Assembly: GCA_965368975.1 (NCBI GenBank)
Contig: CBDUPA010000019.1
Coordinates: forward strand, 84,154-148,153
DNA: 64,000 bases
DNA from: an uncultured bacterium
Lineage (GTDB): Bacteria > Acidobacteriota > Thermoanaerobaculia > Multivoradales > JAHZIX01
Direction: 5' to 3'
Part shown: positions 5,601 to 52,458 of the stretch, piece after piece
Numbering within the stretch: position 1 is the first letter of the stretch
Layout: each line of letters begins with the position of its first letter
Notes under the pieces: generated by a model
What the model was told of the DNA's origin: nothing
Seen by the model: the letters and a program-made list of their open reading frames with translations, nothing else
Databases searched by the model: none
Program-made: the position numbers and the translations under genes

Positions 5601-8600
5601 CACTCCCTTGGGCTTGCCGGTCGAGCCCGAGGTATAGATGACGTACGCTAGGCGCTCCGGACGGCTGTGATCCGGGAAGTTGTCCAGAGAATCGGCCAGG
5701 CTCGCCCCGGTCCGCTGCTCCTCCTCTGCGAGCGACACCTCTGCGAGCGACACCTCCACCAGCAACGCCGGATCCACCACCTCCACACCCGACGAACTCT
5801 CGCCACCGTCGCTGATCAGCAGCAGCGCGGCACCGGAGTCCTGCAGCATGAAGACGGTGCGCTCGGCCGGATAGGCCGGATCGAGGGGGACATAGGCCGC
5901 CCCGGCGCGCAGCACGCCGAGCAGGCTCTCGACCAGCAGCGGTGTTCGCGGCAAGGCGACGCCGACGCGGGGCTCCGCCTCGGAACCCGTCAAGGCCTCC
6001 GCTGGCGCGATTCGGTCTGCGACCCCGGTAGCAATGCGGCCGGCACGGCGCCACAACTCGCGGTAGCTCACGTGCCGGGAACCGGCGACCAGGGCCACGG
6101 CCTCCGGCACGCGTCCAGCACTGGCGGCGACCAGCGAGGCGAGAGTCTCGCTAGCAAGAATGTCGCCGGTAGCCTTCCGCAGCGAGGCGGGGCCGTGCCA
6201 CTCCTGGGCGAGCTGATGGCACTCGGCCGGGCTGAGCAGCTCGAGCCGTCGCAGGCGTTGTTGCGGCTCGGCCGCGAAGCCGGCAAGCAGCTGTCGATAG
6301 TGACCGAGCAGGCGCCGGATCGTCGTCGCGTCGACAAGGGCCGGCCGGTACTCGGCATCGAGACGCAGCGTACGAACACCGGCACCGTCCCGCAGCGGCG
6401 TGACGCTCAGACTGAGGTCGTACTTGGCGCCTCCAGCCGCGACCGACAGCGGTCTCACTTCGACGCCCGGCAAGCCCACCGGAGCCGCCGACGGTGCCTC
6501 GGTGTTCTGCAGCACCAGCAGGGTTTGGATCAGGGGCTCGCGGTCGAGTCGACGTTCCGGCTGCAACGCCGCCACCAGCTGACTGAAGGGCAGATCCTGG
6601 TGGGCGTAGGCTTCGAGCGTCACGGCGCGCACGCGCTCTAGCACCTCGGCGACCGTCGGTCCGCCGGACGTCGTCGAGCCACCGAGATCGAGGCGCAGAG
6701 GCAAGGTGTTGACGAACACACCGAGCAGCGGTTCCAGCTGCTGCTGCGTGCGTCCCGCCACCGGCGTGCCGACGGCCAGGTCGGTCGCGGGATCGCCAGC
6801 GCCGCCGTGGCGGCTGAGCAGTTCGCCGAAGGCAGCCAGCAGCACCATGAAGACCGTCAAGCCAGAACCAGTCAAGCCCGACGAGCGTGTCAGCTCTTCG
6901 ATGGCAGCGGTCTCGGCCGGCGTCAGCGTCTCCAACAAGCGAGCACCACGCGCCGCCTCAGCCGTGTCGACCGTCGACCGTGGACGATCGACCGGCAGTT
7001 CGACCGGCGGCGGCGGCGGATCCAGCCGGCGGCGCCAGACGCGCAACAAGTCTTGCAGCCGTTCGCCCTGGAGCTGGCGGCGCTGAGCGACGGCGAAGTC
7101 GGCGTACTGCAGAGGCAGGGGTGGGATGGAGGCCGCTTCGTCGCCATAGAAGGCACCGACCTCAAGCCACAGGCGATGCCACGACCAGCCGTCGGCGACG
7201 GTGTGGTGCAGCTCGATCAACAAGCGGTGCTTCGGCTCAGAGAGGTGCTTTGTGGCGGAGTCAGGAGCCGAGGGCAAGCGCAGCAACACAGTGCGCAGCA
7301 AGGGACCGCGCGAGAGATCGAAGCGACGCCCGGCCGCGCGGGCCAGCAGCTGGTCCGCGAGTGTGCCCACTGCGATAGCCGCCACTTCGGAACTGCTCCC
7401 CGCCAGCGCCCCTAGGTCGACGACAGGCAGCGCGGTACTCGCGCGCACGATCGGCGACGAGGCGGGCAGGATCTCCTGGTAGGGACGCCCGTCCAGTTCG
7501 GGCAAGCGCGTGCGCAGCACTTCGTGCCGCTCGACGACCCGCCGCAACGCCGCGCGCAAGCGCGCCACGTCCAGACGGCCGCGCAGCTCCAGGGCCGCCG
7601 GCAAGTTGTACGCGGTGCCACTGTCTTCCAGGCGCTCCAGGAACCACAGGCGCTCCTGGGCAAAGCTCAGGGGCGGATGCTGGGGTCGCGGCGGTAGCAG
7701 GTCCAGATCGAGGTCGACCGCATCGAGAGGGATGACTCGATCGGCCTCGGCTGCGGCCGACAAGCCAGGGTCCCGCGCCTCGAGCAAGCCCGCCAGGGCG
7801 TGGGGCGTCGACGCCGTGAACAGCTCAGGCAACGACAGCTCGGCCCCGATTTCGTCGCGCAGCAGCGACAGGAAGCGGGTGGCGAGCAGGGAGTCGCCGC
7901 CCAGCTCGAAGAAGTCATCCTGCGCACCGACCTCGGGCACGCCCAGCAAACGGCCGAGCAGCGCGGCGATGCGGCCGGCGACAGTATCGTCGATGTCCGA
8001 GGGCGCAACGGCCGACGAAGCGACCTCCACCTCCGCGTCGACTCGCAGGGGCATTGAAGGGGCCGAATGGGGCTGGGCGGGGCCCGTCTCGCCAGCCCAC
8101 AGCGGTGCTATGCCGTCCAGCTCGACCCAATGACGCTGCCGCTGGAAGGCGGTTCCCGGCAGGTGCCGGCGCCGCGGTGTCTGGGTCGCCGAGCCGTCGA
8201 AACGCTGCCAATCGACATCGGCGCCCGCCAACCACAGACGTCCCAGCGCCTCCAGTGCACGGGCTCGATCGTCCTCCTGGGCCTCGGCAGCATCGCTTTG
8301 CCGGCGCATCGACGCAATGGCGGTCACCGGCTTTCGGCTCGGGACATCACTCTTGGGTTGCAGGCCATCCTGTCGCAGCGTCTGGCGCGCCAGGCTGCCG
8401 AGGGTGCGGCCCGGTCCGACTTCCAGTAGCACCAGGTCCTCGAGTTGACTCAGGCACTCGACGCCGTCGGCGAAGCGTACGGACCGGCGCAGGTGACGGG
8501 CCCAGTAGTCCGGATCCTGGGTCTGCTCGGCGGTCACCCAGTCGCCGGTCAGGTTGGAGATGTACGGCAGGGTGGGTGGACGCAGCTCGACGCGGCCGAC

Positions 8601-11600
8601 CGCTTCGGCGAAGGCAGCGCAAATCGGCTCCATCATCGCCGAGTGGAAGGCGTGGTCGGTCGGCAGGCGGCGGCAGCTGATGCCGTCCGCTTCGAGCCGC
8701 GCCTGCATCGCTTCGACCGCCGCGACCGGCCCGGTCAGCACGCACACGGACGGTGCATTCACGGCCGCGACTTCGACCCGCTCGCCTGGGTTACCAGCTT
8801 CGTCCTGGGACGCTTGCAGGTAGCGCGCTTCGATGTCGCTGCCGGCAGCCGCCACGCTGACCATGGCACCACCGTCCAGCGGCTCCATCAATTCTCCACG
8901 CAGCGCCATCAGGTCGAGCGCGTCGCGCAAGCTCAGCACGCCGGCCAGCGTCGCAGCCGCGTACTCGCCGACGCTATGGCCGAGCAGCGCTACCGGTTCG
9001 ATCCCCCAGTGCTGCCACAGTCGCGCCAGTGCCACCTCGACCAGCAGCAACGCTGGCTGCGCCCAGCGCGTGCGCCGCAGCTGTGCCGCGGCCTCGCTGT
9101 CGTCGGCGGGCGCGTGCAGCAGGGTGCGCAGATCAAGCCCCAGGCGCGAGCGCAGGTGCTCGGCTCCCTCGTCGATCCAGCGCCGGTACTCGGGCTCGGT
9201 CTCGTACAGGGCCGCGCCCATGCTGGGGAACTGGCTCCCCTGCCCCGGCAGCAGGAAGGCGACGCGCGGCCGGGCACTGCCGGCGGTGATCGCGCGCAGG
9301 TGTGCAGGCACGTCGCGGCTGCGCAGCGCGCGCATGGCTCCGGCCACATCGCGGCACACCACCAGGCGACGTGTCGGCCAGCGTGGACGGCCGCTGCGCA
9401 GCGTATGCGCCACATCCGCCAGATCGGGGGCGGCCAGATCGGGGGCGATGCGCTCGGAGACGACCTGCTCGTCCAGCCAGGTCGCCAAGTCCTCGCAAGT
9501 GGTGTGCAGGGCCGCCGGTGTGTGCGCCGATAACAGCAGCAGGTGCCAGGCGTCCCCGGCGGCGCTCTCGGCGGGTGGCTTCGGCTCGTCGGCGACAGCT
9601 CCGGCGATCGCGGAAGGTGCCTGCTGCAGCACGACGTGCGCGTTGGTGCCGCCGAGCCCGAAGGCACTGACACCCGCACGGCGCGGCAGCTCGGAGGACG
9701 GCCAGGACTCGGCCTGGCCGCTGACGTAGAAAGGCCCCTCCTCGAAGGGAGCCGCCGGATTGGCCGTCTCGAAGCCGGCGGTCGGCGGTACGACGCCATG
9801 ACGCAGCGCCAGCACCGTCTTGATCAGGCCAGCGATCCCCGCCGCCGCGCCCAGGTGACCGATGCTCGCCTTGACGGCACCCAGGGGTCGCCGGTCGTCG
9901 ACCTCGGCGAACGCCCGGTTGAGCGCCGACACTTCGATCGGATCGCCCAGCTGCGTGCCCGTGCCGTGCGCCTCGACATAGCCGATCGTGGCCGCCTCGA
10001 CCGCAGCGTCGGCGTGCGCGGCCGCGATCACGCGGGCTTGGGCCTCGATGCTCGGGGCGGTGAAGCCGGCTTTGTGCTTGCCGTCGTTGTTGACCGCCGA
10101 GCCCAGCACGAGGGCATGAATCGGGTCCCCCGAGGCCAAGGCATCATCGAGCCGACGCAAGGCCACCAAGCCAGCACCACTACCCCAGACGGTGCCGTCG
10201 GCCGCCGCATCGAAGGCTCGGCAGCGACCACTCAGCGCATCGATGCCGCCTTCTTCGTACAGATAGCCCGTGACCTGCGGCACCTTGATCGACACACCAC
10301 CGGCCAGGGCCAGGTCGCAGTCACCCGCGCGCAGTGCACGGCACGCCAGGTGCACCGCCACCAGGGCGGTGGAACACGCCGTCTGGACGCTGACGGCGGG
10401 GCCGCTGAGCCCCAGGCGGTAAGCCAGCTGGGTGACGAAGTAATCACGGTCCGCGCCCATCGCCAGCTGGTAGGCGCCCACCTCGCGCAGCAGGTTGGGA
10501 TCGCGTTGCAGGTAGTGCAAGAAGTAGGTGGAGAGCGTGCCACCGGCGAAAACGCCGATCGAGCCGGCAAAGCGTTCGGGATCGACCGCAGCATCGTCGA
10601 GAGCGAGACGCGCGGTCTCGAGCAACAACCGCACCTGCGGATCGAGCAGCTGAGCCTGACGCGGCGTCAGCCCGAAGTGCTCGGCGTCGAAGTCCTCGAC
10701 ACCGTCGAGCACGCCCCGACCGCGCACCAACTTCGGATGCGTCACCAGCTCGGCAGGCAGGCCCGCCGCCAGCAACTCTTCGTCGGTGAAGCGGCGCACC
10801 GCCTCGCGACCGTCGAGCAGCTGCCGCCAGAAGGCGTCGACATCGGGCGCACCCGGGAACCGGCCCGCCATGCCGACGATGGCGATCGGTACGGCACTCT
10901 CGCCAACACCGGCACTGGCACTGGCACTGGCACCGGCCGGCCGAGACGCTTGCAGCACCTGGGCTCGGACCGCCGGCTCCGACGTCTCCAGCAGGCGTGC
11001 CAGGTAGCGAGCCTGCCCGCGCACCGTCGGATGCGCGAACAGCTCGACCAGCGGCAGCTCACGGCCCGCCAGCTGCTGCAAGCGCGCGTGCAGACGCACC
11101 AGCAGCAGCGAGTGACCGCCGAGGTCGAAGAAACTGGCTTCCGGGTCGACCGCTGGCACTTCGAGCAACTCGGCCCACAACGCCTCGATGTCGCGCTCCA
11201 GCCGTTCTTCCGGCGTCGAGCCGGGCAGCAGCGGCGCGGCGGCCAGTTCGGCTCCAGAAACGGCTCCAGGCACTACCTGTGCCGACGAAGCCAGTACCGA
11301 CGAAGCCAGTACCGACGAAGCCAGTGCCGACGAAGCCAGCGCCGGCAGACGCTGGGCCAGGGCGCGGCGATCGACCTTGGCGTTGGCGGTCAGCGGTAGT
11401 CGATCGAGGACCTCGAAGGCCGCGGGCACCATGTAGGCCGGCAGACGCTGCAGCAACGCGGCGCGTACCGCTCCGGGGTCGATCCCGCCCGTGGCAACGG
11501 CCCCCGCCGATCCCGCCTGGGGCACAAGGAACGCGACCAGGCGACTGGCCACTCCCAGCTGCGGTCCCCTCAGCCCAGTACTACTGCTCGGGCCCTGCGC

Positions 11601-14600
11601 CAGCACCACCGCCTCGCGCACCTCTGGCAGGGCCACTAGGACCGCTTCGATCTCCGCCGGTTCGACGCGGAACCCGCGAATCTTGATCTGCTTGTCCCGG
11701 CGACCGGCGAACGCGACTTCGCCATTGGGTAGATAGCGGCCGAGATCGCCGGATCGATAGAGGCGAATCTGCGACTGGGTGCGGGCAGCGTCAGGATGGA
11801 CTACATCCGGTGTGAACGCCAGAGCCGTGGCGCGGGGATCGTCCAGGTAGCCGCGCGCCAGGTGCGGACTGCGCACGGCGATCTCGCCCAATTCGCCGAC
11901 GCCCGCCGGGCGGTGGTCGCGATCCAGCACCAGCAACTGCACATCGCGCATGCCGTGCCCGAGCGGCAGCACGGGACGCGCAACATCGGCCGCCGAGGCG
12001 ACGTGGTACGAAACCGCTCGCTGGGTCTCGGTCGAGCCGTAGAGGTTGACCACGGTGACCGACGGCGCCAGCTGCCGCAGGCGCTCGACATCGCGACCAC
12101 GCAGCGCCTCTCCCACCAGCAGGACTCGGCGCAGCGCGGGCAGGCGCACTGGTTGCGCACGGACAGCCTGCGCACGGACAGCCTGCGCACGGATCGTGTC
12201 GCCTTCGCACAAGACCTGTCCCAGCGCTGGCGTCAAGTGAGCGACCGTCACCCCGACCTCGGCCATCCAGGCGGCCAGCCGACCGGCAGCGGTCAAGTCT
12301 CGGGGATCGGGAACGGCGAGCTCAGCGCCCAGGAAAATCGGCGTGAACAGGTCGCGCTGCAGCGGATCGTGACCAAGGCCAGAGAGCAGGCTGAAACGGT
12401 CGTCCGGTCCCATTTCCAGCGTCGCGCACTGCCAGGGCAGGAAGTGAGTCAGCGGTCCGTGGCGCCCCTCGATTCCCTTGGGGACGCCAGTGGAGCCGGA
12501 GGTGAAGGCGACCAGCGCCAGGTCTTCGGGACCGATCTCGACGTCGGGCACGGCGGTTCCGGTCGTCGGTAGGCCTGTCGTCGGCAACTTCTGGACGAAG
12601 TCGAGGGTCTCGGCTTGGCTGCCGACCGGCAGCTGCAGCAGGGAGGCCGTGCGCTGCTGGCACCAGGTCGCGACACTGGGACCCTCTTCGTCGCGCGCCG
12701 GCGCCAGGCTAGACAGCACCGCGGTTTCTGCCGCTGGTGGCAAGAGTTCCAACACGGCGCTCGGTCGCGCCGCATCGAGCATCTGAGCACGACGCACGGC
12801 TGGCCACGCCGGGTCGAGCAGGACCAGCGCGGCCCCCGCCTTGAGAACGCCGAGGACCGCCGGCAGCAACACCGCGGCACGCCACGTCAGGATCGCCACG
12901 CGGTCGCCGCGCCGTACCTCGTGCGCCACCAGCCAAGCCGCCAGCGCGTCACTGACGACCGCGACCTCGCCATAGCTCCAAACGCCGTGTCGATCCCGCA
13001 CCAGGGGCCTCTCCGGCTGGCGACGCGCGTGCTCGGCGAAGTGCTGGTGGATCGGGCCGTGCCAGCTGGTCTCCAGGATCTGTCGTGGGTCTGGCAGCAG
13101 CTGCGCCGCCTCGACAGTGCGCAAAGGCAATGCCGCCAGCTGCTGATCAGGGTCCGCCACTGCCGCCGTCAGCAGCGTTGCCAGCTGGCGGGGCCAATCC
13201 TCCATGCGCGCGGCGTCGAACAGCGCGGCGTCGTAGTGTAGCTCCCAGCGCAAGCCGCCATCCGCCAGTTCCTCAATGTAGAAGGTGACGTCGAACTTGG
13301 CCGGCAGTTCCGGCGGCGTCAGCAGGTCGACCTCCAAACCGGCCAGCGTCGGCGTCACCGGCGGCAGGTTGAGCAGGTTGACGAAGACCTGGAACAGGGG
13401 CGTTCGAGCCGGGTCCCGCTCCGGGCGCAAGCGCTCCAGCAGCGCCTCGAACGGGACGTCCTGATGCCCGAAGGCCCCGATTGCGGCGGAACGGACGCGT
13501 TCCAGGAGTTGCAGGAAGCTCAGCCGAGGCGTCACCTGGGCCCGCAGCACCAGGCTGTTGAGAAATAGGCCCACGATGCTCTCGGTCTCGACGTGCTGGC
13601 GCCCGGCCACCGGCGTGCCGATCGCGATGTCCGTCTGACCGCTGTGGCGGGCCAGCAAGACCTGGATCGCCGCCGTCAGCACCATGAACAGCGTCGCTCC
13701 GCCGCGCCGCGCCAGCGCCCGCACGCCATGGACCAGGGTCGCGGGCCAGTGTTGATGAACACTGCCACCCGAGGCATCGGGGTCTCGTCGCGGCGGTCGT
13801 GGACGGTCGGTGGGGAGTTCGAGGACTTCCAGCCCCTCCAACGTCTCGGACCACCAGTCGAGCTGTGCCTGTGCCCGCCGGGCGACAAAGCCGCGCTGCC
13901 AGAGCGCGAAGTCGGGGTACTGCAGGCGCGCGGGCGATTCCGTGTGCCTCGCGCCCTGTCGCTCTCCTGGGCGCTCGCCTGGCTGGTCGTTTGGCTGGTC
14001 GCCTGACTGGTCGCCTGGCTGGCCCGCCTGCCAGCCCGCCTGCAGATCACGCATCATGAGCCCGAGCGACCAGCCGTCGGCGGCGATGTGGTGAACGTTG
14101 AGGTGCAGGTGGTGCCGGTCACTAGCCAACCGCAGCAGCAGTGCCTTCAGCACCGGGCCGCGCGACAGGTCGAACGACCGGCCACCATGCGCCGCGCCCA
14201 GTTGCCGCGCCACGGCGTCGGCTTCGGCGGCATGCGCATGAGAAAGCGTCAAGCGGCGCAGATCGATCACGGGCAGCCGTAGCGCCGCCGGCTCCTGCAC
14301 GATCTGCCGAGGCTCATCGCTGGTATTGGACACGAAGACCGTGCGCAGCGCCTCGTGGCACGCCACCAGGTGGTCGAGCGCGGCGCTCAGCCTGGCGACC
14401 TGGAAGGTCCCGATCAGTCGCAGACCCGCGGCAATGTTGTACGCCGCGGACCCGACCTGGAGTCGGTCGAGCAACCACAGACGTTGCTGCGAGTACGACA
14501 GGGGAAGTTCGCGCAGCCCTGGCGGCCGGACGGTAGGGGCTTCCTCGTAGGTTACCTCTTCGATGGAGGCCTGCTCGATGCCCACTTCCCCGATAGGGAC

Positions 14601-17600: not shown

Positions 17601-20600
17601 TGGGCCTCGCCACGGTGTACCTTCCGGTTCGACCGCGGTCAGCACGCGAGCCGGCAGCTTCCCGGGCATCTCATCGAGCCGAGCCTCGGTCGTGATCAGG
17701 ATCGGGTCGCGCCCGTCGAAGGCCGCCAGGTCCTCCAGCACCGCCTGTAACCGCTCGACCGGCAAGGCAAAGTCGAGCGGCACATAGGCTCCGCCGGCGT
17801 AGAGGACGGCCAGGGCGGCCGTGACGTAGTCGGCACCGCGCGGCAGTAGCACGGCGACCGGGGTTTCAAAGCCGACATCCAATACACGCAGTCGCCCGGC
17901 CAGCGCCTGCGCGCGCTGGTCCAGGCAACGGTAGGTGACGCCCAGATCGAGCCCCCGGCCAGCGCCCGCCACCGCAGTATCGACCGCGTCCGTGCCTGCG
18001 TCCGCGACCCAGACGGCTACCGCGTCCGGGACTTGACGCGCAGCAGCTGCCACGCGCTGCGGGATGGCCTGGAAACGAGCACCATCATCGCGGGGTCTCG
18101 GCTCGAAGGCAGCGTGGTTCCACTCCAGCAGCCACTGGTGACGCTGGGCCACCGTCAGCAGCGGCAAAGCGGCAACCGGGGTCGAGGGTGCGGTCAGCGC
18201 CGCCTGCAGCAGGTGCTCCCAAGCCCCCAGCCAGCGCTGCACGGTGCTGGCATCGAACAGGTCGCTGGCCGCGAGCAGCGACGCGGCGAGGCTGGACCTG
18301 GGCCCGGACGGCACCATGGCCAACCGCAGCACCAAGTCGAAGGTGGCCGACCGCTCCGGCAGTTCGATGGATTCGAGAGTCAGGCCGCCATCCCCGGGGC
18401 CACCCATCTTCAAGGTTCCCCCGGCCAACCCGAGCGCGAAGGCGGCGAGGCCGGCGTCTTGCGCCAGTCGTGGACGCTGCAGCGTCAGCATGGTCTGGAA
18501 CACCGGCGAGCGCCCCGGGTCGCGTTCCGGATGCAGCACTTCGGCCAGGCGTGGGAACGGCAGCTCCGCGTGCGCCAGGGCCGCGACGACGCGGTCGCGT
18601 ACCTGCCGCAACAAGCCGCCAAAGTCGAGCCCTTCCGAGCTTGTACCCAGATCCACCGCGATCGCCAGGGGGTTGACGAAGTAGCCCACCAACGGTGCCC
18701 ACTCGCCCCGGCGACGACCCGCCGAAGGGATGCCGACAATCAACCGCCGCTGGCCAGTGAGGCGACCCAGCAAAACGGCCCAACTGGCCAGCAGTACCGT
18801 CAGCGGCGTCGCTTCGGCGGCGCGCGCAACAGTACTCACCGAAGACTCTTCGAGGGCCAAGCGGCGCGTCACCGCCAGCCCGCGCTGACTCGGCTGTGCC
18901 GGTCTGGGGCGATCAGTCGCCAGGTCGAGCACCAGCGGCACGTTCGCCAGGCGCTGTCGCCACCAGGCTTCCAGCTCTTCGCCCTGGTCGACGAGACAGC
19001 GTGTCTCATCGCGCACGAAGTGACCGTAGTCCGCGGGGAGCGGCGCAAGCTCCAGAGGCAGTACCTCGGCGGCGCACAGCTCACCGAGCTCACGAACCAG
19101 CACGCTCAAGGACCAGAAGTCCGCGATGAGATGGTGAATGACCAACACCAGCACGGCCGAACCGTCCGCCGTCGAGGCCCCCTCCTCCTCGAGCAGGGCG
19201 ACGCGTACCAGGGGCCCTGCCTCGAGATCGAAGGGCCGGTCAATCAGAGCTTCGAGCGCCTCGGGAGTGGCCCGGGGAGTAGCCCCGGCACCGACGACCA
19301 GCTCCGGTACCACCTGTCGTCGCACCCGTCGCAGGTCTCCCTCAGGAGCCGTGAAGGTGGTGCGTAGCTCGCCGTGACGCTGGGCCAAGAGCGCCAGGAT
19401 CCCTCGTAGGCGGGGCTCGCTTGGCGCAGGGGAAATCCGAGCCGCGGCCGCGATGTGATAGGCAGCGGCGCGCGGTGCCTGGCGCGCTAACAACCAGAGG
19501 GCGCGTTGGCCGTAGGAGGGGTCTTCGTCTTCGTCGCCGAGATCGTCCTTGCTCGACGCCGGCGTCTCAGCTTCCCGACCCTGTCCCGGCCCCGGTTGGA
19601 TCGCCGCCAGCAGTCGGGAGGCCAGACCCTTGAGATCCAGATCGCCGAGTAGCACATCGACCGGAACCTCGACACCGAAGTCTTGCTGCACCCCATGCTG
19701 CAGCTGCACGACATCCAACGAGTCCAGGCCCAAAGAGGTGAGCGGCTGATCCGCGCGCACAGCACTCAGCGGCTGATCCGCCGCCGCCGCCAAGCGACGC
19801 TTGAGTTCCAGGCGCAGCAGCGGACCGCGTTCGTCCTCGTCCATGGCCAGGAGCAGCGCGCGATCGATGCGCAGCTCATCCCCGTCGTCTGACACGGTGT
19901 CGCTCTGCCGAGTACCGTCCTGCGGCGTCTCGGACTGCACCGCCGCGGGACGCGCCGCACCGCTCCGTGCCACCACGTTCAAGCTCTCGTCGAGGTAGCC
20001 ACGGCGGCAGGCATGACGCTGGATCTTGCCGCTCGACGTCTTGGGCACGCTGCCGGTGCGCAGCAGCACGATTTCGTGCAAGCGCACCTCGTGCCCCTCG
20101 GCCAGGGCCTGCCGCACGGCGTCGAAGATCTCCTCGTTGGACGCGTCGGGATGGCGCACCACCTCCGCGACATAGACCAGTGCCTCGCCGCCCGCGGCTT
20201 CGTCACCCGTCGGATCGACCGCGAAGGCGGCGGAACAACCAGCCCGCAGGGCACTGTGCGCCGCCTCGGCGGTGGCTTCCAGATCCTGTGGATAGTGGTT
20301 GCGCCCGCGCAGGATGATCAGGTCCTTGAGCCGGCCGGTGACGTAGAGTTCACCGTCTCGCAGGAAGCCGAGGTCACCTGTGCGCAGCCAGCCGTCCCTC
20401 TCTTGGGAAGAGCCGGCTAGATTTGCGTCGAAGGTCTCGGCGGTCACCTCCGGCCGGCGCCAGTAACCACCCGCGACGCTCGGACCGCGCACCCAGATCT
20501 CCCCGACGGTGCCTTCGGCCACGGGTTGCGCGGTCTCGGGATCGACCAGGCGCACGTCCTGCGCGTGACGGTCGACGCGGCCGCTGCTGACCAGGGAGCG

Positions 20601-21818: not shown

Positions 21819-21890
21819 CTGAAATCTCTCCCATCTCCCCGACACACCCCTACTCCGTGAATCAAATAGAAAGAGAACGCGAAAGGATTA

Positions 21891-22898
21891 TCAGCCCTTG
21901 TGCCTTTGGTGCGCCGCGAGCGCCGACTTGGCGATACCTGCGGCGTCGAGGCCAAAGTGCGCCAAGTGCACGTCGTGCGTTCCGAGAACCGGCGAGAAGG
22001 TATCCGGAATTCCGAGGATCTTCATCGGTGTCGGCCGGCGCGTGGCCAGAGTCTCGGCCACCGCACCACCCAGGCCGCCATAGACGTTGTGCTCCTCGAC
22101 GGTGAGGATCAGGCCGGTCTCCTCTGCCGCCTGCTCCAGCAACTCGGCGTCGATCGGCTTGATGCTGTACATGTCGATGACGCGTGCGTCGATACCCTGC
22201 TCGGCCAGCTTGGCCGCCGCCTTCAGGCTCTCCGGCACCACCGCGATGCCGGCGGCAACCAGCGTCAGGTCCTTGCCGTCGCGCAGTACATGGCCCTTGC
22301 CGATCTCGAAGCTGGCGTTCTCGTCGTAGACCTGCTCAGCATCGTCCATACCGATGCGCAAGAAGGTCGGCCCCTCGTACTCGACGCAGGCCATCGTCAG
22401 GTGGTAGGTCGCCACACCGTCGGCCGGTGCCACGACGGTCATGCCGGGCAGCGCACGACCAATGGCGATATCCTCAATGGCGTGGTGGGTCGGACCTGAG
22501 AAGCCCGACTGCATGCCGGCGAAAGTGCCGAAGATCTTGACGTTGGTGTTGTGGTAGCAGATCTCCAGGCGCACCTGCTCACAAGCACGCATCAAGGCGA
22601 AGTCGGCGAAGGTGTTGACCATCGGAATCTTGCCGCGCAACGCCAGGCCCGAGGCGACGCCGATCAGGCTGGCCTCGGCGATGCCGACGTCGATCCAGCG
22701 GTCCGGGAACTCGTCGCGAAAGTCGAAGCCGAAGAAGTCGCCCAGGTCGGCCTCGACCGACCACACGCGTTCGTCCTGCTGGCCGGCGTGCAGCTGGCCC
22801 AGACGGTTGGTGCGCACGGTCGACAGGCCGTACTTCTCGATCCACGCGGCACTGCCGGGTGCCGGCTCCGTTGTAGGAGGTGTCAGACGGCGACTCAT
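21891..22898 (-). CDS. Transketolase C-terminal (pyrimidine-binding) subunit, paralog 2
   Basis: GIAEASLIGVASGLA, FADFALMRACEQVR, GPTHHAIED, IKPID and TVEEHNVYGGLG. Its start overlaps the upstream stop (ATGA, 22895-22898). Confidence 0.92.
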   Translation of the reverse strand: MSRRLTPPTTEPAPGSAAWIEKYGLSTVRTNRLGQLHAGQQDERVWSVEADLGDFFGFDFRDEFPDRWIDVGIAEASLIGVASGLALRGKIPMVNTFADFALMRACEQVRLEICYHNTNVKIFGTFAGMQSGFSGPTHHAIEDIAIGRALPGMTVVAPADGVATYHLTMACVEYEGPTFLRIGMDDAEQVYDENASFEIGKGHVLRDGKDLTLVAAGIAVVPESLKAAAKLAEQGIDARVIDMYSIKPIDAELLEQAAEETGLILTVEEHNVYGGLGGAVAETLATRRPTPMKILGIPDTFSPVLGTHDVHLAHFGLDAAGIAKSALAAHQRHKG

Positions 22899-23755
22899 GA
22901 TGCACTCCGCGGCCGGATGGCCTCCAAATCCTTGAACGCCTGCTCGCGCTGCTCGGCATTCATCTTGCCATAGTGCCAGGCGTGGTTACCCTCGGCGTAG
23001 GAGATGGACTTGCCCTTGACGGTCTGCGCGATGATCACCGACGGCTTACCGGAGGTGAACGGAATGTCGTGCAGCGCGGAACTCAGCGCCTCGACATCGT
23101 GGCCGTCGATCTCGCGCGCGTCCCAGCCGAAGGCGCGCCACTTCTCGGCGAACGGCTCCAGCGACATGATGTCCTCGGTCTTGCCGTCTTCCTGCACGAA
23201 GTTGCGGTCGACGATCGCCACCACGTTGTCCAGCTTGTAGTGTGCGGCGGTCATCGCGGCCTCCCAGATCGAGCCTTCCTGGCACTCACCGTCGCCCAGA
23301 ACGACGTAGACACGCCGGTCTTCGCCGTCGTGCTTGGCGGCCAGCGCGATGCCGTTGCCTACGCCCAAACCGTGGCCCAGCGAACCGGTCGCCAGCTCGA
23401 TGCCCGGAATCGCCTTCGACGGATGGCCAGCCAGACGGCCGCCGGTCTTCTTGTACTCCTTCAGCTCCTCCACCGGGAAGAAGCCACGCTCGGCCATGGC
23501 GGCATAGAGCGACGCGCTGGAGTGCCCCTTGCTGAAGATGAAGTAGTCGCGGTCTTCCCACTTCGGGTTGCTGGGATCGACGCGCACCACGCCGTCGAAG
23601 AGCAGCACGGTGAGGATCTCTACCGACGACATCGAGCCGCCCAGGTGGGCGCCCGGCGAGTCGGCGCACATCCGGACGATGTGTTCGCGCAGGGTATAAG
23701 CGATGGCGCGCAGGTCGTCCGCGGAGGCGGCATTGGTGGCGCTGGCGGTAGGCAT
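22895..23755 (-). CDS. Transketolase N-terminal (ThDP-binding) subunit, about 286 aa
   Basis: AHLGGSMS, SKGH, LAGHP, TGSLGHG and the ThDP motif GDGECQEG...DRN. ATG at 23755 follows AAGGAG. The track's longer 24106 start overlaps the aminotransferase and was rejected. Confidence 0.92.
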   Translation of the reverse strand: MPTASATNAASADDLRAIAYTLREHIVRMCADSPGAHLGGSMSSVEILTVLLFDGVVRVDPSNPKWEDRDYFIFSKGHSSASLYAAMAERGFFPVEELKEYKKTGGRLAGHPSKAIPGIELATGSLGHGLGVGNGIALAAKHDGEDRRVYVVLGDGECQEGSIWEAAMTAAHYKLDNVVAIVDRNFVQEDGKTEDIMSLEPFAEKWRAFGWDAREIDGHDVEALSSALHDIPFTSGKPSVIIAQTVKGKSISYAEGNHAWHYGKMNAEQREQAFKDLEAIRPRSAS

Positions 23756-23846
23756 AGGTTGCTCCTTCAGGCGTATATTGACGATGCTCTTTCGATATGT
23801 TTCTTCAGCAATTCCGGACCAGATTAGGCAGTTCAGAACAGCCAGG

Positions 23847-25181
23847 TCAGAACAACACGACCTCGCCCTCCCAGGGCTCGCGGTACTCGATCGACTTGGC
23901 GTAGCGCACGAACTCATCGCGGTTGGCGAACACCTTCTCGAACGCCGCGGCGTACAGGTCGACGTTGGCCGGCTCCATGAAGCTGGCCATACACAAGCGC
24001 TTGCCAACCAGCATCGTGCTGCGAATGACGTCCAACGTCTGCGGGTAGTCGTGGATGTCGTACTGAATGTCGCGCGAGTTGTGGCCACACGACCACGGGC
24101 AGCCACGGCCGTACCCGTCCTTGTTCTGGAACAGGTGCTGCCCCGGCAGTGGACGCGTCTGGTAGTGGATCAGCGGCACGCCCTCGGCCGCCATCACGTC
24201 GTCCAACGCCTTGCGCATCACGCCGGCATCCAGATCGAGGCCCGCCTCCTCCGGCTTCACGCGGAAGCGGAAGTGGTGGTAGACGTGGGTGCTGCCCTCG
24301 GGCACGTGGGGCGCTTCGAGTCCCGGTATGGCATCGAAACAAGCACGCAGCCGATCGGCGCCGGCTTGAACCCGCGCGATGTAGTCGTCGTAGCGGTCGA
24401 GCTGGCTGAGCGTGAACGCCGCCAGGATGCTGCTGAAACGGTAGTTCCAGCCCATGGTCATGGCGTTGTAGTCTCGCTCCTGCCCCTTGACCACCTTCTC
24501 ACCGAACATCTTGACCATGTCGGCTCGGTCGCGCAGATCGCTGTCGTTGGTGGTGAACAGACCACCCTCGCCGGCCGTCGCGAGGTTCTTGCCGGCCATG
24601 ATGCTGTACGTGCCCATGTCGCCGACATTGCCGGCCTGCTTGCCCTTGTAGAGGGCACCCGGTGCCTGTGCGTTGTCCTCGATCACCTTGACGCCGTGGC
24701 GGTGGGCGATCTCGATGATCGGATCCATGTCCGCCGGTAGGCCGTGGAGATGCACCGCGATGATCGCCTTGGTGCGATCGGTGATGTGCTGCTCGAGCTT
24801 CGTCGGATCGAGGGTATAGGTGCGCGGATCGACATCGGCGAACACCGGTAGGCCCTGGTGGTGGATGATCGCCGAGGCCGAAGCCAGGAACGACAGCGCC
24901 GGCACGATGACCTCGTCACCCGGCTCCACTCCCGCCGCCACCACCGCCGCGTGCAACGCCGCGGTACCGCTGTTGACCGCGATGCAGTACTTGCTGCCCA
25001 CGTAGTTGGCCCAGCGCTCTTCGAGCGCCGGCACGTCGTGCGTGTTGATCCAGCTCAAGTTGCCGGTACGCAGGCTGTTCGAGACGGCTTCGATGTCAGC
25101 TTCATCGACGATCGGCCAGGTCTCGGTGATCGCACCCGTGGCGACAGCGGGCGAGCCGCCGTGAATCGCTAGTTGACTCAT
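23847..25181 (-). CDS. DegT/DnrJ/EryC1/StrS family PLP-dependent aminotransferase
   Basis: NSGTAALH, GDEVIVP, TKAIIAVHLHG, VIEDNAQAPGA, PLP-lysine motif SIMAGKNLATAGEGG and GWNYR. AGGAG RBS upstream. Confidence 0.93.
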   Translation of the reverse strand: MSQLAIHGGSPAVATGAITETWPIVDEADIEAVSNSLRTGNLSWINTHDVPALEERWANYVGSKYCIAVNSGTAALHAAVVAAGVEPGDEVIVPALSFLASASAIIHHQGLPVFADVDPRTYTLDPTKLEQHITDRTKAIIAVHLHGLPADMDPIIEIAHRHGVKVIEDNAQAPGALYKGKQAGNVGDMGTYSIMAGKNLATAGEGGLFTTNDSDLRDRADMVKMFGEKVVKGQERDYNAMTMGWNYRFSSILAAFTLSQLDRYDDYIARVQAGADRLRACFDAIPGLEAPHVPEGSTHVYHHFRFRVKPEEAGLDLDAGVMRKALDDVMAAEGVPLIHYQTRPLPGQHLFQNKDGYGRGCPWSCGHNSRDIQYDIHDYPQTLDVIRSTMLVGKRLCMASFMEPANVDLYAAAFEKVFANRDEFVRYAKSIEYREPWEGEVVLF

Positions 25182-25192
25182 TCCATGTGCTC

Positions 25193-26197
25193 CTAAGCTG
25201 ACTTTCGTTCCAGCACCTGCTTGGCGGTGGCGGCGATCGAAGCCGCGTCCATGCCGTACCAGGGCAACATCTCTTCTTGCGGACCAAACTTCTCGGGGAA
25301 GGCGTTGTCGAGCCCGACACGTGCCAGCGGCACCGGAGCGTGCTGCATCAGCACCTCCGCGACCGCGCAGCCCAACCCCGCGTAGATGTTGTGGTCCTCC
25401 ACCGTCACCGCCGCGCCGCAGGCCGCCGCCGCTTCGGCGATCGCCTCGCCATCGAGCGGCTTGAGCGTGTGCACGTTAACCAGCCGAGCCCCGATACCGT
25501 CGGCTCGCAGCTGCTCGACCGCCGCTTGCGCCTCGGCCACCATGAGGTTGCCGGTGGCGAAGATGGCAATGTCGTCACCGTCGCTCAGTTGCACGGCCTT
25601 GCCGATCTGGAAGTCGTAGTCGTCCTGGTACACCTGCGGCGTCTCGGCACGGCCGACCCGGATGTACACCGGACCGTCGTGCTCAAAGGCTGCTCGTGTC
25701 GCCTTGTACGTCTCGATCGAGTCAGCCGGCGACAGCACCACGAAGTTGGGCAACGCCCGCGTGATCGCGTAGTCCTCGATGCAGTAGTGCGTGCTCGCCG
25801 CCAGGCCACCCGAAGTGCCGGAGTAGTAGCCGATCAGCTTGACGTTCGAGTTGTGGTAGGCGATGGCCAGTCGCACCTGCTCGCAGGCGCGCATGATCAG
25901 GAACGAAGCGAAGGAATTGACGAAGGGAACCTTACCGCGTTTGGACATGCCCGCAGCGCAACCAACCAGGTCGGCCTCAGAAATACCCAGTTGCACCCAG
26001 CGCTTCGGGAACACCTCGTGGAAGGGAACCGACGGCATGCCGAGGTCACCTTCCAGCGAGTAGAGGCGCTCGTCCTCGTAGGCCAGTTCCAGCTGTGCCA
26101 TGCGGCACACTTGGCGGCTGGAAAGCCCATAGTGGTCGAGCCATGCCCCGGAGCCGGGACGCAACTCTTCCGGCCGAGACCAGTTGGTCTGAATCAT
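25193..26197 (-). CDS. Transketolase C-terminal (pyrimidine-binding) subunit, paralog 1
   Basis: GISEADLVGCAAG, FASFLIMRACEQVR, STHYCIED, LKPLD and TVEDHNIYAGLG. ATG at 26197 follows GGAGGA. Confidence 0.9.
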   Translation of the reverse strand: MIQTNWSRPEELRPGSGAWLDHYGLSSRQVCRMAQLELAYEDERLYSLEGDLGMPSVPFHEVFPKRWVQLGISEADLVGCAAGMSKRGKVPFVNSFASFLIMRACEQVRLAIAYHNSNVKLIGYYSGTSGGLAASTHYCIEDYAITRALPNFVVLSPADSIETYKATRAAFEHDGPVYIRVGRAETPQVYQDDYDFQIGKAVQLSDGDDIAIFATGNLMVAEAQAAVEQLRADGIGARLVNVHTLKPLDGEAIAEAAAACGAAVTVEDHNIYAGLGCAVAEVLMQHAPVPLARVGLDNAFPEKFGPQEEMLPWYGMDAASIAATAKQVLERKSA

Positions 26198-26260
26198 CAC
26201 TGCTCCTCCAATTGTAGATGCCCGATAGCGGACCAAAGTAAATCAAGGGAAACGGCGGCC

Positions 26261-26288
26261 ATTGTATCGCTTCGCGGAACGAGTTCAA
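26261..26288 (-). promoter_or_regulatory. Candidate sigma70-type promoter for the transketolase/aminotransferase operon
   Basis: The minus strand reads TTGAAC-N16-TACAAT about 64 nt upstream of the 26197 ATG, in the divergent intergenic region. Confidence 0.4.
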
Positions 26289-26610
26289 GCTTCAGACTAC
26301 CGATTCGCGCTCAACTGCCATTCCGGATCCCCGAAAGACACGAGCTGATACGGAGATCGAGGTCGGAAGTTGGGTCCGTAGACCAGTCCCTCGTCCTCGA
26401 GCACGGACCACTCTTCACGCCAGCCCAGCCGTCGAAGACAGCGACGGCCGGAGCCGGAGCTCACCGTATGGGCCGTCGGCGGCCCGTGCACCGGCGGTGG
26501 ATGCCCAAGGATCTCGAGAACCGCGACCTGCCTGTAACGGCGTCACATCCGGCGAAGTCCCATGAGCGAGCCAATCGGATAGACTCGAGGCCTCTCAACC
26601 GAGACCGAAA

Positions 26611-27427
26611 ATGAAACCGATCTCAGCACCGGAGTCTCCCGACATGCCGGCCGGCCAGCCCGCCTGGGCGACTCCTGTCTCGCACGACGCTCACGGAACG
26701 TTCGCCGACCTGGACCTCGACGGCATGCGGCACCGCCTGCGCTGGATTCCACCGGGAACCTTCCTGGCAGGATCTCCCCCCAGCGAAGGCGGCCGCTATG
26801 CCTGGGAAGGGCCACAGACCGAAGTGACGCTACAAGGCTTCTGGCTGGGGGAAACCCCCTGCACGCAAGACGTCTGGCAAGCGGTGACCGGAGACAATCC
26901 GAGCAAGTTCGTCTCTCCGCGACGCCCGGTCGAACAGGTCAGCTGGGACCAGTGCGTCGCCTTCCTGGAGCAGTTGAAGACCCGAGTGCCGTCGCTAGAG
27001 CCGCGCCTGCCCACCGAGGTGGAGTGGGAATATGCCTGCCGTGCCGGAACCTCGACCAGCACCTATGCCGGCGAGTTGGAGATCCTGAGCCCGTACAACG
27101 CGCCACTGCTCGATGAGATCGCCTGGTACGCGGGCAACAGCTGCCACGACTTCGACCTGGACGCTGGTGTCGACGCGACCCGCTGGGCAGACAAGCAATA
27201 TCCGGGCGACCAGGCCGGTACACGCCTCGTCGCGTCGAAGCGGCCCAACCCCTGGGGTCTCTATGACATGTTGGGCAACGTCCTGGAGTGGTGCCAGGAC
27301 ACGGTCGGCTCCAAGCGCGTCAGCCGTGGTGGTTCCTGGAGCTACAGCGCTCGCTGCCTGCGCGCCGCCTACCGTGGCTGGTGGCCACCCAACTCGCGCT
27401 TCTGCGATCTCGGCTTCCGGCTCGCGC

Positions 27428-27435
<8 letters not shown>
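26611..27435 (+). CDS. Formylglycine-generating enzyme (FGE-sulfatase/SUMF1) domain protein
   Basis: RWIPPGTFLAGSP, ETPCTQ, PVEQVSWD, RLPTEVEWEYACRAG, PNPWGLYDMLGNVLEWC and RGGSW...GFRL. It lacks the two-cysteine catalytic loop of true FGE. Confidence 0.88.

Positions 27436-52458
<25,023 letters not shown>

What the first reader, a model, noticed from the sequence alone, without database searches (positions are those of the whole stretch)
7780..26197. Candidate new pathway: three-subunit transketolase plus DegT aminotransferase feeding a FAAL-NRPS-PKS lipopeptide line
Seen: a tight operon (TK-beta1, DegT aminotransferase, TK-alpha, TK-beta2) ends 72 bp upstream of the co-oriented megasynthase, with no obvious terminator between them. 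Known: a split transketolase plus an aminotransferase builds the diamino-dihydroxy acid DADH from a carrier-bound glutamate semialdehyde in vazabitide/azinomycin-type pathways, and two-component ThDP enzymes deliver sugar-derived C2 units in naphthyridinomycin/quinocarcin pathways. Unlike those, no LysW-like carrier is visible in this window, there are two beta subunits, and the partner line has a Lys2-like A domain, a spare C domain and an unreduced keto module. Inference: the operon makes an amino-polyol or chain-extended amino acid (ketol transfer, then transamination) for an undescribed lipopeptide-polyketide.
Basis: partly seen in the sequence, partly recalled or inferred. Interest (0 to 1): 0.88.

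Follow-up and report, generated by a model that had tools for sequence, protein, structure and literature searches.

The report
Carrier-free three-subunit transketolase–aminotransferase cassette beside NRPS
Four small genes at the head of a giant lipopeptide synthetase operon encode a transketolase with one alpha and two different beta subunits plus an aminotransferase; they most resemble the enzymes that build the unusual amino acid DADH for azinomycin-type antibiotics, but they lack the carrier protein those pathways need.

Summary
TK-beta1, a DegT-fold aminotransferase, TK-alpha and TK-beta2 form a tight minus-strand cassette (21891-26197). It has its own promoter-like site and ends 45-72 bp upstream of a 13,272-aa synthetase that starts FAAL-ACP-C-A-T.

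The aminotransferase's best solved relative is Fic25, the ficellomycin DADH aminotransferase (E 4.9e-107). Two Streptomyces plasmid relatives sit in canonical LysW/LysX/ArgC/ArgB/TK operons beside NRPS genes.

This genome, and the five other cassette genomes tested, have no LysW match. The two beta subunits are conserved sister paralogues. Beta1 keeps the two arginines that the Streptomyces DADH beta also has. Beta2 replaces both with hydrophobic residues but keeps the cofactor Glu and a His.

Orthologous cassettes occur in 16 of 300 genomes of the same order, mostly beside NRPS/PKS genes. By contig-length proxy they also occur in Actinomycetota and a Geminicoccaceae MAG. Here the racemase-like pair that elsewhere follows beta2 lies right after the last synthetase gene, so the synthetases sit inside the cassette.

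Best reading: a carrier-independent, DADH-like ketol-transfer and transamination pathway that feeds the NRPS. The acceptor aldehyde and the product are unknown. The proposed link to the Lys2-like A domain is not supported. This is a new variant of a known kind.

The parts
25193..26197 (-). TK-beta1: transketolase Pyr + C-terminal domains. This is the catalytic-type beta and resembles the Streptomyces DADH beta.
   Evidence: Pfam. It keeps both Arg, the Glu and the His that the Streptomyces DADH TK-beta also has. It lies in the beta1 clade (SH-aLRT 95).
23847..25181 (-). DegT-fold PLP aminotransferase of the Fic25/DADH-aminotransferase type, 444 aa
   Evidence: Pfam 6.4e-85. PDB 8GYH/8GYI/8GYJ (= Fic25): E 4.9e-107 over residues 1-425. 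Lys198 in the AGKNL motif is invariant in 30 orthologues.
22895..23755 (-). TK-alpha: ThDP-binding N-terminal domain, 286 aa
   Evidence: Pfam 1.3e-45. GDG...N ThDP motif and GHP histidine seen in the sequence. 50.9% identical to the Streptomyces DADH TK-alpha, against 33% to the genome's own full-length TK on contig C20.
21891..22898 (-). TK-beta2: paralogous beta subunit without the two arginines
   Evidence: Pfam. Signature V/E/H/M at the four checked columns. It lies in the beta2 clade (SH-aLRT 100). Its ATG overlaps the TK-alpha stop.
26261..26288 (-). Promoter-like site (TTGAAC-16-TACAAT) in the 413-bp divergent intergenic region upstream of beta1
   Evidence: This is a consensus match only: 1 found, against a mean of 0.8 in shuffles.
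21819..21890 (-). Short spacer between the beta2 stop and the megasynthase start, with no terminator-like site
19974..21632 (-). FAAL domain of megasynthase M3 (whole gene = contig C19 66225-106040, 13,272 aa)
19617..19805 (-). Loading ACP
   Evidence: PP-binding.
16167..19523 (-). Module 1: C-A-T. The A-domain code DVWFLGNVV reads as Leu-like; known codes are recalled, not from a call.
13128..16016 (-). Two consecutive condensation domains, both with HHIAADG
10986..13040 (-). Lys2-like A domain plus T domain
   Evidence: TIGR03443 412.5 bits. The best PDB match is the second A domain of LgrA.
7773..10889 (-). PKS module KS-AT-ACP without KR/DH/ER

Best explanation
The four genes encode a carrier-protein-independent relative of the DADH building-block module of azinomycin, ficellomycin and vazabitide pathways.

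Step 1 (inferred from homology). TK-alpha with TK-beta1 forms a ThDP-dependent split transketolase. It moves a two-carbon ketol unit from a ketose phosphate, or from hydroxypyruvate, onto an aldehyde. The product is a 1,3-dihydroxy-2-ketone.

Step 2 (inferred from homology). The Fic25-like PLP aminotransferase converts the ketone to an amine, giving a 2-amino-1,3-diol end group.

Acceptor (inference). It is not LysW-bound or N-acetyl glutamate semialdehyde, because the genome shows no LysW, ArgB or ArgC. My lead candidate is a free aldehyde that does not cyclise, such as aspartate 4-semialdehyde. An alternative is an aldehyde made by the acyl-CoA ligase and aldehyde dehydrogenase of the accessory gene set on contig C29.

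TK-beta2. It is a conserved paralogue that has lost both arginines but kept the cofactor Glu and a His. It either gives TK-alpha a second, non-phosphate-binding active site or acts as a non-catalytic partner.

Fate of the product (inferred). It is tailored by the racemase-like pair and the Fe-alcohol dehydrogenases. It is then taken up by the FAAL-initiated NRPS-PKS line, with which the cassette appears to be co-transcribed.

Shown here: gene identities, homology, conservation, absence of the carrier, and gene order. Not shown: substrates, product, subunit stoichiometry, and incorporation into the peptide.
For: 1. Closest solved relative. Fic25 (PDB 8GYH/8GYI/8GYJ): E 4.9e-107, 361.6 bits, full length. 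The next hit is Ser5 at 225.5 bits, then perosamine synthetases at about 216 bits. Fic25 converts the transketolase product ADOH to DADH (passages of PMC11726168). AziC5/C6 carry out the two-carbon extension of a protected glutamate semialdehyde (passage of PMC9570651).

2. Streptomyces relatives. Loci L210 and L211 carry a DegT (43-45% identical), TK-alpha (51-54%) and a single TK-beta, together with LysW, RimK/LysX, ArgC, ArgB and an M20 hydrolase, beside NRPS genes.

3. Specificity of the pairing. 16 of 17 places with a DegT orthologue (61-71% identity) have TK-alpha next to it. All 9 loci long enough to judge have both beta types. None of 160 loci with distant DegT homologues (46% identity or less) has a transketolase subunit gene.

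4. The alpha subunit keeps the GDG...N ThDP motif and the GHP histidine. A passage of PMC13663882 says this histidine is typical of transketolases and is replaced in DXS.

5. Beta1 and the Streptomyces DADH beta share the Arg/Glu/His/Arg signature.

6. No carrier. The LysW family gives 0 matches in G000 (99.3% complete), while the same search rings in 4 of the 14 control genomes. It gives 0 of 5 in other cassette genomes. There is no ArgC-level match and no tblastn hit for LysW, ArgC or ArgB.

7. Link to the NRPS line. Beta2 is followed after 45-72 bp by M3, with no terminator-like site. The racemase-like pair follows beta2 directly in 5 other loci (L091, L194, L197, L198, L199). Here it starts 76 bp after the stop of the last synthetase gene, M1. 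9 of 11 orthologous loci of at least 9.9 kb hold NRPS/PKS domains.
Against: - No biochemical or expression data were available.
- NRPS/PKS genes are so dense in this genome (299 of 1,238 20-kb windows, 24%) that adjacency alone is weak evidence. The related genomes are kin, not independent samples.
- No A domain could be assigned to the product. The only lead is the first A domain of M2, whose code DIESMGTVV looks Lys-like and resembles DTEDIGTIV beside the G676 cassette. It rests on recalled specificity codes.
- The FAAL line ends in a T domain with no TE. Which line uses the product, if either, is therefore open; the upstream line ends in a TE.
- Both beta subunits lack the residues that I recall as the phosphate-binding His and Ser and the stereo-determining Asp of canonical transketolase. 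Donor and acceptor may therefore differ from the textbook ones.
- The cassette has lower G+C (0.64-0.65) than the flanking synthetase genes (0.69-0.72), so it may be a separate acquisition.
- The accessory genes (DoeA-like M24 hydrolase, SSADH-like ALDH, racemase-like pair) resemble ectoine-catabolic sets. A non-NRPS small-molecule role is possible.
Confidence: 0.55

Rival explanations
1. The cassette makes a free small molecule or serves a salvage or catabolic route together with the DoeA-like hydrolase, ALDH, racemase-like pair, Fe-ADHs and ThrC-like enzyme. It lies beside NRPS genes only because such genes are everywhere in these genomes.
For: 24% of 20-kb windows in G000 carry NRPS/PKS domains. 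The accessory proteins resemble ectoine-utilisation enzymes: ectoine hydrolase model at 336.6 bits against a cut-off of 575, SSADH-like ALDH, and PRK07475 racemase-like proteins. Locus L202 (about 10 kb) shows no NRPS domain. The cassette's G+C differs from its neighbours.
Against: The cassette and the racemase-like pair bracket the three synthetase genes in one orientation with short gaps. 9 of 11 longer loci have NRPS/PKS domains. Both Streptomyces relatives examined sit in NRPS clusters. The characterised homologues feed NRPS lines (passage of PMC9570651). MacB-type exporters accompany the cassette.
Confidence: 0.15
2. The transketolase acts on an aldehyde presented on, or released from, the assembly line or another carrier (T or ACP domain). 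Beta2 would be the partner that recognises that carrier. This parallels the inactive Ser4 subunit of the SerTA aminotransferase.
For: Beta2 is a conserved paralogue, always encoded directly after alpha (16 of 16 loci where the sequence continues), and it lacks the arginines. PMC11726168 describes an inactive paralogue that contributes to carrier recognition in a related pathway. Type II loci have an NRPS that begins with a T domain, plus a stand-alone adenylating enzyme.
Against: No reductase (R) domain or other aldehyde-releasing domain was seen in the parts scanned. Beta2 keeps the cofactor Glu and the His in more than 100 of 119 homologues, which suggests catalysis rather than pure scaffolding.
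Confidence: 0.12
3. The split transketolase delivers a glycolyl (C2) extender unit to a carrier protein, as in the naphthyridinomycin and quinocarcin pathways. The aminotransferase would act elsewhere.
For: There is a two-component ThDP enzyme next to an NRPS-PKS, with a spare C domain and a PKS module nearby.
Against: No lipoyl/E2-like acyltransferase partner or free ACP is encoded among the window's genes. The aminotransferase-TK pairing is the conserved unit (16 of 17 places) and matches the DADH type. I could not compare with Nap/Qnc sequences, because none was available from a tool.
Confidence: 0.05
4. It is an ordinary sugar-modifying pair (a nucleotide-sugar DegT aminotransferase plus split TK), as seen in exopolysaccharide or O-antigen loci.
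For: Split TK plus DegT genes do occur in an Actinoplanes EPS cluster (passage of PMC13390465). NCBIfam's best hits for the DegT are sugar aminotransferase models, all far below their cut-offs.
Against: No glycosyltransferase, nucleotidyltransferase or Wzx/Wzy gene turned up among the neighbours scanned in G000, G036 and G677. None of 160 distant DegT loci has TK genes. Fic25 scores far above perosamine synthetase.
Confidence: 0.03

Closest known systems
AmCP-mediated DADH module (Vzb27/28 + Vzb9 of vazabitide A; AziC5/C6 + AziC7 of azinomycin; Fic25 of ficellomycin)
   Same: A split transketolase next to a long (about 440 aa) DegT-fold aminotransferase. Fic25 is the best solved match. The beta1 signature equals that of the Streptomyces DADH beta. 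The location is beside NRPS genes. The chemistry is ketol transfer followed by transamination (passages).
   Different: No LysW, LysX, LysZ/ArgB or LysY/ArgC. There is a second, arginine-less beta subunit. Identity is only 43-51%. The accessory genes differ: a racemase-like pair, Fe-ADHs, ALDH, an M24 hydrolase and an acyl-CoA ligase. No sulfotransferase is present in this genome.
AniP/AniQ of anisomycin biosynthesis
   Same: A transketolase-type C-C bond formation is followed by transamination of the product, which builds an amino-alcohol scaffold (passages of PMC11387542).
   Different: AniP is a single 603-aa polypeptide that uses aromatic keto acids as donors. No sequence comparison was made here.
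NapB/NapD and QncN/QncL two-component ThDP systems (recalled; no paper read here)
   Same: Two-component ThDP enzymes encoded in NRPS clusters.
   Different: As I recall, those systems pass a glycolyl unit through a lipoyl/E2-like domain to an ACP. No such partner is present here, and there the aminotransferase is not part of the unit.
SerTA (Ser4/Ser5) hetero-oligomeric aminotransferase of a Serratia AmCP cluster
   Same: A paralogous partner that has lost key residues, sitting beside the catalytic one. This is an analogy for beta2 (passages of PMC11726168).
   Different: A different enzyme class. Beta2 here keeps its cofactor Glu and a His.
Split TK + DegT genes in the Actinoplanes missouriensis wps-2 EPS cluster
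   Same: The same Pfam families lie side by side (passage of PMC13390465).
   Different: That context is a Wzx/Wzy polysaccharide locus with a single beta. No sequence comparison was made here.

Membership tests
AmCP-mediated DADH pathway | Fic25/Vzb9/AziC7-type DegT-fold aminotransferase | tested here: met
   E 4.9e-107 to 8GYH/8GYJ (= Fic25) over the full length; 42.8% identical to the Streptomyces operon aminotransferase.
AmCP-mediated DADH pathway | Split transketolase (N and C subunits) encoded beside the aminotransferase | tested here: met
AmCP-mediated DADH pathway | LysW-type amino-group carrier protein | tested here: not met
   TIGR01206 gives 0 matches in G000, while the same search rings in 4 of the 14 control genomes. 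It gives 0 of 5 in other cassette genomes. No tblastn hit.
AmCP-mediated DADH pathway | LysX ligase, LysZ/ArgB kinase and LysY/ArgC reductase to make the carrier-bound semialdehyde | tested here: not met
   No ArgB or ArgC tblastn hit. The only RimK-like hit is 28% identical and lies on contig C13. The ArgC family gives only a 32.8-bit match against a cut-off of 233.6.
AmCP-mediated DADH pathway | Product is DADH, taken up by an NRPS | not testable with these tools
   Needs chemistry.
Canonical transketolase (EC 2.2.1.1) | ThDP/Mg motif GDG...N in the PP domain and the cofactor-activating Glu in the Pyr domain | tested here: met
   Sequence of alpha. The Glu column is conserved in beta1 and beta2.
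Canonical transketolase (EC 2.2.1.1) | Sugar-phosphate site: two Arg, plus His, Ser and Asp (residue roles recalled, not from a call) | tested here: not met
   Beta1 keeps both Arg, but the His, Asp and Ser positions are changed. Beta2 lacks both Arg as well.
Nap/Qnc-type glycolyl-ACP system | Lipoyl/E2-like acyltransferase partner and a dedicated ACP | tested here: not met
   None among the window's ORFs and Pfam hits. The rest of the genome was not searched for it.
Nucleotide-sugar aminotransferase locus | Neighbouring glycosyltransferase, nucleotidyltransferase or Wzx/Wzy genes | tested here: not met
   None in the neighbours scanned.
FAAL-initiated lipopeptide NRPS-PKS | N-terminal fatty-acyl-AMP ligase, then ACP, then C domain | tested here: met

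The most novel reading that the evidence does not exclude
A carrier-free, three-subunit transketolase (alpha, a beta1 that keeps the two arginines, and a hydrophobic beta2) is paired with a Fic25-type aminotransferase. Together they form a widespread and so far undescribed module, present in Acidobacteriota and, by contig-length proxy, in Actinomycetota and Alphaproteobacteria.

The module would turn free aldehydes, such as aspartate semialdehyde, into 2-amino-1,3-diol amino acids for NRPS lines. Beta2 would create a second kind of active site within one enzyme. In the sulfotransferase-bearing sister loci the same module would lead to aziridine warheads without any LysW machinery.
Probability: 0.3. 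Interest if true: 0.8.

Novelty: new variant of a known kind. Interest (0 to 1): 0.62.

Why it matters
DADH-type building blocks underlie the aziridine warheads of azinomycin, ficellomycin and vazabitide. All characterised routes protect the amino group, either with the LysW carrier or, in the earlier N-acetyl proposal for azinomycin (passage of PMC9570651).

A conserved version without that protection, and with a second, chemically different beta subunit, would be useful in three ways:
- It would show another way to make amino-diol amino acids.
- It would give a compact four-gene handle for genome mining of NRPS clusters in little-studied phyla.
- It would offer new transketolase/transaminase pairs for biocatalysis of chiral amino-diols.

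It also marks a very large, unexplored lipopeptide locus in a genome unusually rich in NRPS/PKS genes.

Tried and rejected
1. Both collection scans for related loci (genome contigs, metagenome contigs) returned only distant DegT homologues (46% identity or less), because the peptide patterns chosen were generic. I used them only as a negative control. Close orthologues came from the genome search instead.

2. The phylum-wide sample gave no orthologue besides G000: 1 of 401 genomes.

3. I could not see the gene context of the Amycolatopsis, Lentzea, Jatrophihabitans and Geminicoccaceae orthologues. Co-location there rests on equal 'longest contig' lengths, which is a proxy and not proof.

4. 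The link between the cassette and the Lys2-like A domain is rejected.

5. My first attempt to read A-domain specificity codes by fixed offsets failed, because the spacing varies. I replaced it with an alignment. The meaning of the codes is recalled, not tool-derived.

6. Expression: no RNA holder was listed for the stretch.

7. Complex prediction, structure prediction, fold search, the search of protein representatives and the protein-atlas search were not used. Sequence matches to solved structures were already strong, and a complex of split-gene halves would pass by likeness.

8. Literature. Searches for DegT + transketolase + gene cluster, 'split transketolase', Thermoanaerobaculia + nonribosomal peptide, and transketolase + aminotransferase + nonribosomal peptide + two-carbon found no description of a two-beta transketolase or of this cassette. 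The primary Fic25, vazabitide and azinomycin transketolase papers are not in the library. I saw only passages of PMC11726168, PMC9570651, PMC11387542, PMC13390465 and PMC13663882. Supplements were not opened.

9. MIBiG, antiSMASH and cblaster comparisons could not be run.

Full report
**What is there**

The window is the last 64 kb of a 148-kb contig (C19) in a 7.1-Mb assembly of about 70% G+C. Every large gene lies on the minus strand. In order of transcription:
- A synthetase that runs off the contig end (more than 3,846 aa).
- An 8,344-aa NRPS that ends in a thioesterase domain.
- A divergent FGE-sulfatase-family gene on the plus strand (26611-27435).
- The four small genes of the finding.
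- A synthetase that leaves the window on the left.

The four genes are TK-beta1 (25193-26197), a DegT-fold aminotransferase (23847-25181), TK-alpha (22895-23755) and TK-beta2 (21891-22898). Their Pfam E-values run from 1e-24 to 6e-85. The junctions are tight: 11 bp, about 91 bp, and a 4-bp ATGA overlap, each with a Shine-Dalgarno-like sequence. A promoter-like site lies about 65 nt upstream of beta1. No terminator-like site lies between beta2 and the next gene.

**The wider locus**

In the whole contig the downstream synthetase (M3) is 13,272 aa. It is followed by synthetases of 2,347 aa (M2) and 12,957 aa (M1).

M3 reads FAAL-ACP-C-A-T-C-C-A-T-KS-AT-ACP-C-A-T..., with epimerisation-type domains further on. 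M1 ends in a T domain, and no TE was seen.

Two Asp/Glu-racemase-superfamily genes begin 76 bp after the M1 stop. An Fe-alcohol dehydrogenase that is 66% identical to one in the G036 cassette locus lies 7 kb further on.

A second contig, C29, carries an acyl-CoA ligase, an aldehyde dehydrogenase, a DoeA-like M24 hydrolase, a second Fe-ADH, a protein with a LeuRS editing domain and two MacB-type permeases, all between NRPS genes. C29 breaks off at the A3 motif of an A domain. C19 begins just after the A4 region of the same A-domain type. The two contigs may therefore be neighbours across a repeat-induced gap. This is plausible, not shown.

**What the enzymes are**

The aminotransferase's best solved relative by far is PDB 8GYH/8GYI/8GYJ: E 4.9e-107, 361.6 bits, residues 1-425 against 1-424. 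The next hits are Ser5 at 225.5 bits and perosamine synthetases at about 216 bits.

PMC11726168 names 8GYJ as Fic25 (passages read). Fic25 converts the transketolase product, carrier-bound amino-dihydroxy-oxoheptanoate, to DADH in ficellomycin biosynthesis.

PMC9570651 describes AziC5/C6 as the transketolase that adds two carbons to a protected glutamate semialdehyde, before an aminotransferase gives DADH (passage read).

On two Streptomyces plasmids the 43-45% identical aminotransferase lies with TK-alpha, one TK-beta, LysW, RimK/LysX, ArgC, ArgB and an M20 hydrolase beside NRPS genes.

The window's alpha is 51% identical to that Streptomyces alpha, against 33% to the genome's own full-length transketolase. 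Alpha keeps the GDG...N ThDP motif and the GHP histidine. According to PMC13663882, that histidine distinguishes transketolases from DXS (passage read).

**Conservation**

Orthologues of the aminotransferase (57-74% identity) are numerous in public data. Among whole genomes:
- 1 of 401 in a phylum-wide sample, and that one is G000 itself.
- 16 of 300 in the same order, G000 included: 13 of 92 in one family, 2 of 8 in another, and 0 of 5 in G000's own family.

I fetched 17 places.
- 16 have TK-alpha next to the aminotransferase. The exception is an extra copy in G668.
- All 9 loci long enough to judge have both a beta1-type and a beta2-type gene.
- 9 of the 11 loci of at least 9.9 kb contain C, A, T or AT domains.

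As a control, none of the 160 loci with distant DegT homologues has a transketolase subunit gene.

Two layouts occur.
- **Type I.** The full order, seen in G036 and G592, is acyl-CoA ligase, MacB, ALDH, M24, DegT, alpha, beta2, two racemase-like genes, Fe-ADH, beta1, a second Fe-ADH-like gene, a ThrC-like gene and DJ-1. G597 shows the stretch from MacB to beta1.
- **Type II.** This is the compact form: DegT, alpha, beta2, beta1, with a PF03567 sulfotransferase directly after beta1 in G677, G678, G674 and G681. A further copy of that sulfotransferase follows the extra DegT in G668. In G677 the cassette also sits beside a stand-alone adenylating enzyme, a MacB permease and an NRPS that starts T-C-A.

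G000 has the type I gene content but in a rearranged order. Beta1 sits in front, and the three synthetase genes lie between beta2 and the racemase-like pair.

Contig lengths that coincide between and tie these genomes to NCBI labels of Thermoanaerobaculia/Acidobacteriota. The same proxy suggests that DegT, beta1 and beta2 share a contig in a Geminicoccaceae MAG. It also suggests that DegT and beta2 share a contig in Amycolatopsis acidicola and in a Jatrophihabitans MAG.

**The two beta subunits**

In a maximum-likelihood tree, beta1 (SH-aLRT 95) and beta2 (100) are sister clades (96). Together they are sister to the two Streptomyces DADH betas. The root rests on one very long outgroup branch.

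At four checked columns:
- Beta1 and the Streptomyces DADH beta read Arg-Glu-His-Arg.
- Beta2 reads Val-Glu-His-Met in G000.
- More than 100 of 119 database homologues closer to beta2 show a hydrophobic residue, Glu, His, hydrophobic residue. They include the Amycolatopsis, Lentzea, Jatrophihabitans and Geminicoccaceae proteins.

In type II loci beta2 has decayed further: the Glu is lost in 2 and a loop is deleted in 2.

Aligned with the Carboxydothermus split TK and with human TK, both betas lack the positions that I recall as the phosphate-binding His and Ser and the Asp that reads the acceptor's hydroxyl. Beta2 is therefore a conserved and distinct subunit. Whether it is catalytic is open.

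**No carrier**

The LysW family gives no match in G000 (99.3% complete), while the same search rings in Thermus, Deinococcus, Haloferax and Sulfolobus. It gives none in five other cassette genomes. ArgC is not found at family level. LysW, ArgC and ArgB give no tblastn hit in G000 or in the fetched loci. Neither the LysW route nor the N-acetyl route to glutamate semialdehyde is visible.

The Lys2-like A domain is real (TIGR03443, 412.5 bits). However, this domain type has 3-11 matches per genome at E <= 1e-60 in 9 of 10 cassette genomes, all at places other than the cassette. Most are 45-61% identical and a few are 37-39%. G036 has none. It is not tied to the cassette.

The tandem C domains and the reductase-less PKS module are present. 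Nothing tested here connects them to the cassette.

**How it most likely works**

By homology, alpha with beta1 transfers a ketol unit onto an aldehyde, and the Fic25-like enzyme aminates the new ketone. The result is a 2-amino-1,3-diol end group.

No amino-protecting machinery exists here. The acceptor is therefore most simply an aldehyde that does not cyclise. Aspartate semialdehyde is my lead; this is an inference, about one chance in four. An alternative is an aldehyde made by the acyl-CoA ligase and ALDH of the accessory set.

Tailoring by the racemase-like pair and the Fe-ADHs, and uptake by the co-oriented NRPS line, are inferred from gene order only.

One weak lead for the accepting module is the first A domain of the 2,347-aa synthetase. 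Its pocket residues, DIESMGTVV, resemble those beside the G676 cassette, DTEDIGTIV, and look Lys-like by codes that I recall.

**Limits**

- No expression data were available; no RNA holder was listed.
- No chemistry and no MIBiG comparison were possible.
- The related genomes are kin.
- NRPS/PKS density is high: 24% of 20-kb windows in G000.
- I could not see gene context outside this order, apart from three plasmid records. The third, a Mesorhizobium plasmid, shows DegT, TK-alpha, a TK-beta-like gene and a radical SAM gene, with no LysW in the 13.5 kb shown.

**Verdict**

This is a real, conserved and apparently undescribed variant of the DADH-type transketolase/aminotransferase module. It is carrier-independent and has three transketolase subunits. 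It heads a giant FAAL-NRPS-PKS operon. Its product and its target module remain unknown.

Noticed in passing
whole genome G000: 299 of 1,238 20-kb windows (24%) contain an NRPS/PKS domain hit, spread over 28 contigs. This is an unusually large biosynthetic load for a 7.1-Mb genome.
   Followed up: partly
contig C19 20263-106040 (window 3-21845 is its first part): Three consecutive synthetase genes of 13,272, 2,347 and 12,957 aa give about 22 amino-acid modules plus one PKS module after a FAAL start. They end in a T domain, and no TE was seen. The upstream 8,344-aa synthetase (window 27428-52462) does end in a TE. The order in which the lines act is unclear.
   Followed up: partly
L190 13649-14392 (G677); also L192, L193, L195, L196: In the compact sister loci a PF03567 sulfotransferase (73-82% identical among them) directly follows TK-beta1. 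In L196 it follows an extra DegT copy instead. Azinomycin-type pathways form the aziridine by sulfation of DADH (passage of PMC9570651). G000 has no homologue.
   Followed up: partly
contig C29 25165-26907 (L207 5165-6907, minus strand): A 580-aa protein with a LeuRS editing (CP1) domain lies between the Fe-ADH and the MacB genes of the accessory set. It may guard against mischarging by a non-proteinogenic amino acid.
   Followed up: no
contig C29 left end and window right end (63999): C29 ends at an A3 motif. C19 starts after the A4 region of the same repeated A-domain type (pocket DAWYIGHVT, at least 7 copies). This suggests that the two contigs adjoin across an assembly gap of roughly 300 bp.
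   Followed up: partly
window about 12400-12450 (Lys2-like A domain) and contig C19 M2 first A domain: Short in-frame peptide repeats sit between the A4 and A5 motifs of two A domains: AQAVR AQAVR AQPVR in one and GSVSP x3 in the other.
   Followed up: no
window 26611-27435 (+): An FGE-sulfatase-family gene is divergent from the cassette. The genome has at least 7 paralogues on contigs C13, C12 and C7. None is seen beside the cassette in other genomes.
   Followed up: partly
window 22001-28000: The cassette region has G+C of 0.64-0.65, against 0.69-0.72 in the flanking synthetase genes.
   Followed up: no
whole genome G000: There is no ArgC-level match (the best TIGR01850 match is 32.8 bits against a cut-off of 233.6). 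There is also no ArgB or ArgC tblastn hit with the Streptomyces queries. The usual arginine pathway may be absent or divergent.
   Followed up: no
contig C19 222-4890 (outside the window): Two tandem 768-aa ORFs lie side by side. The one scanned has a Ser/Thr kinase domain plus TPR repeats.
   Followed up: no
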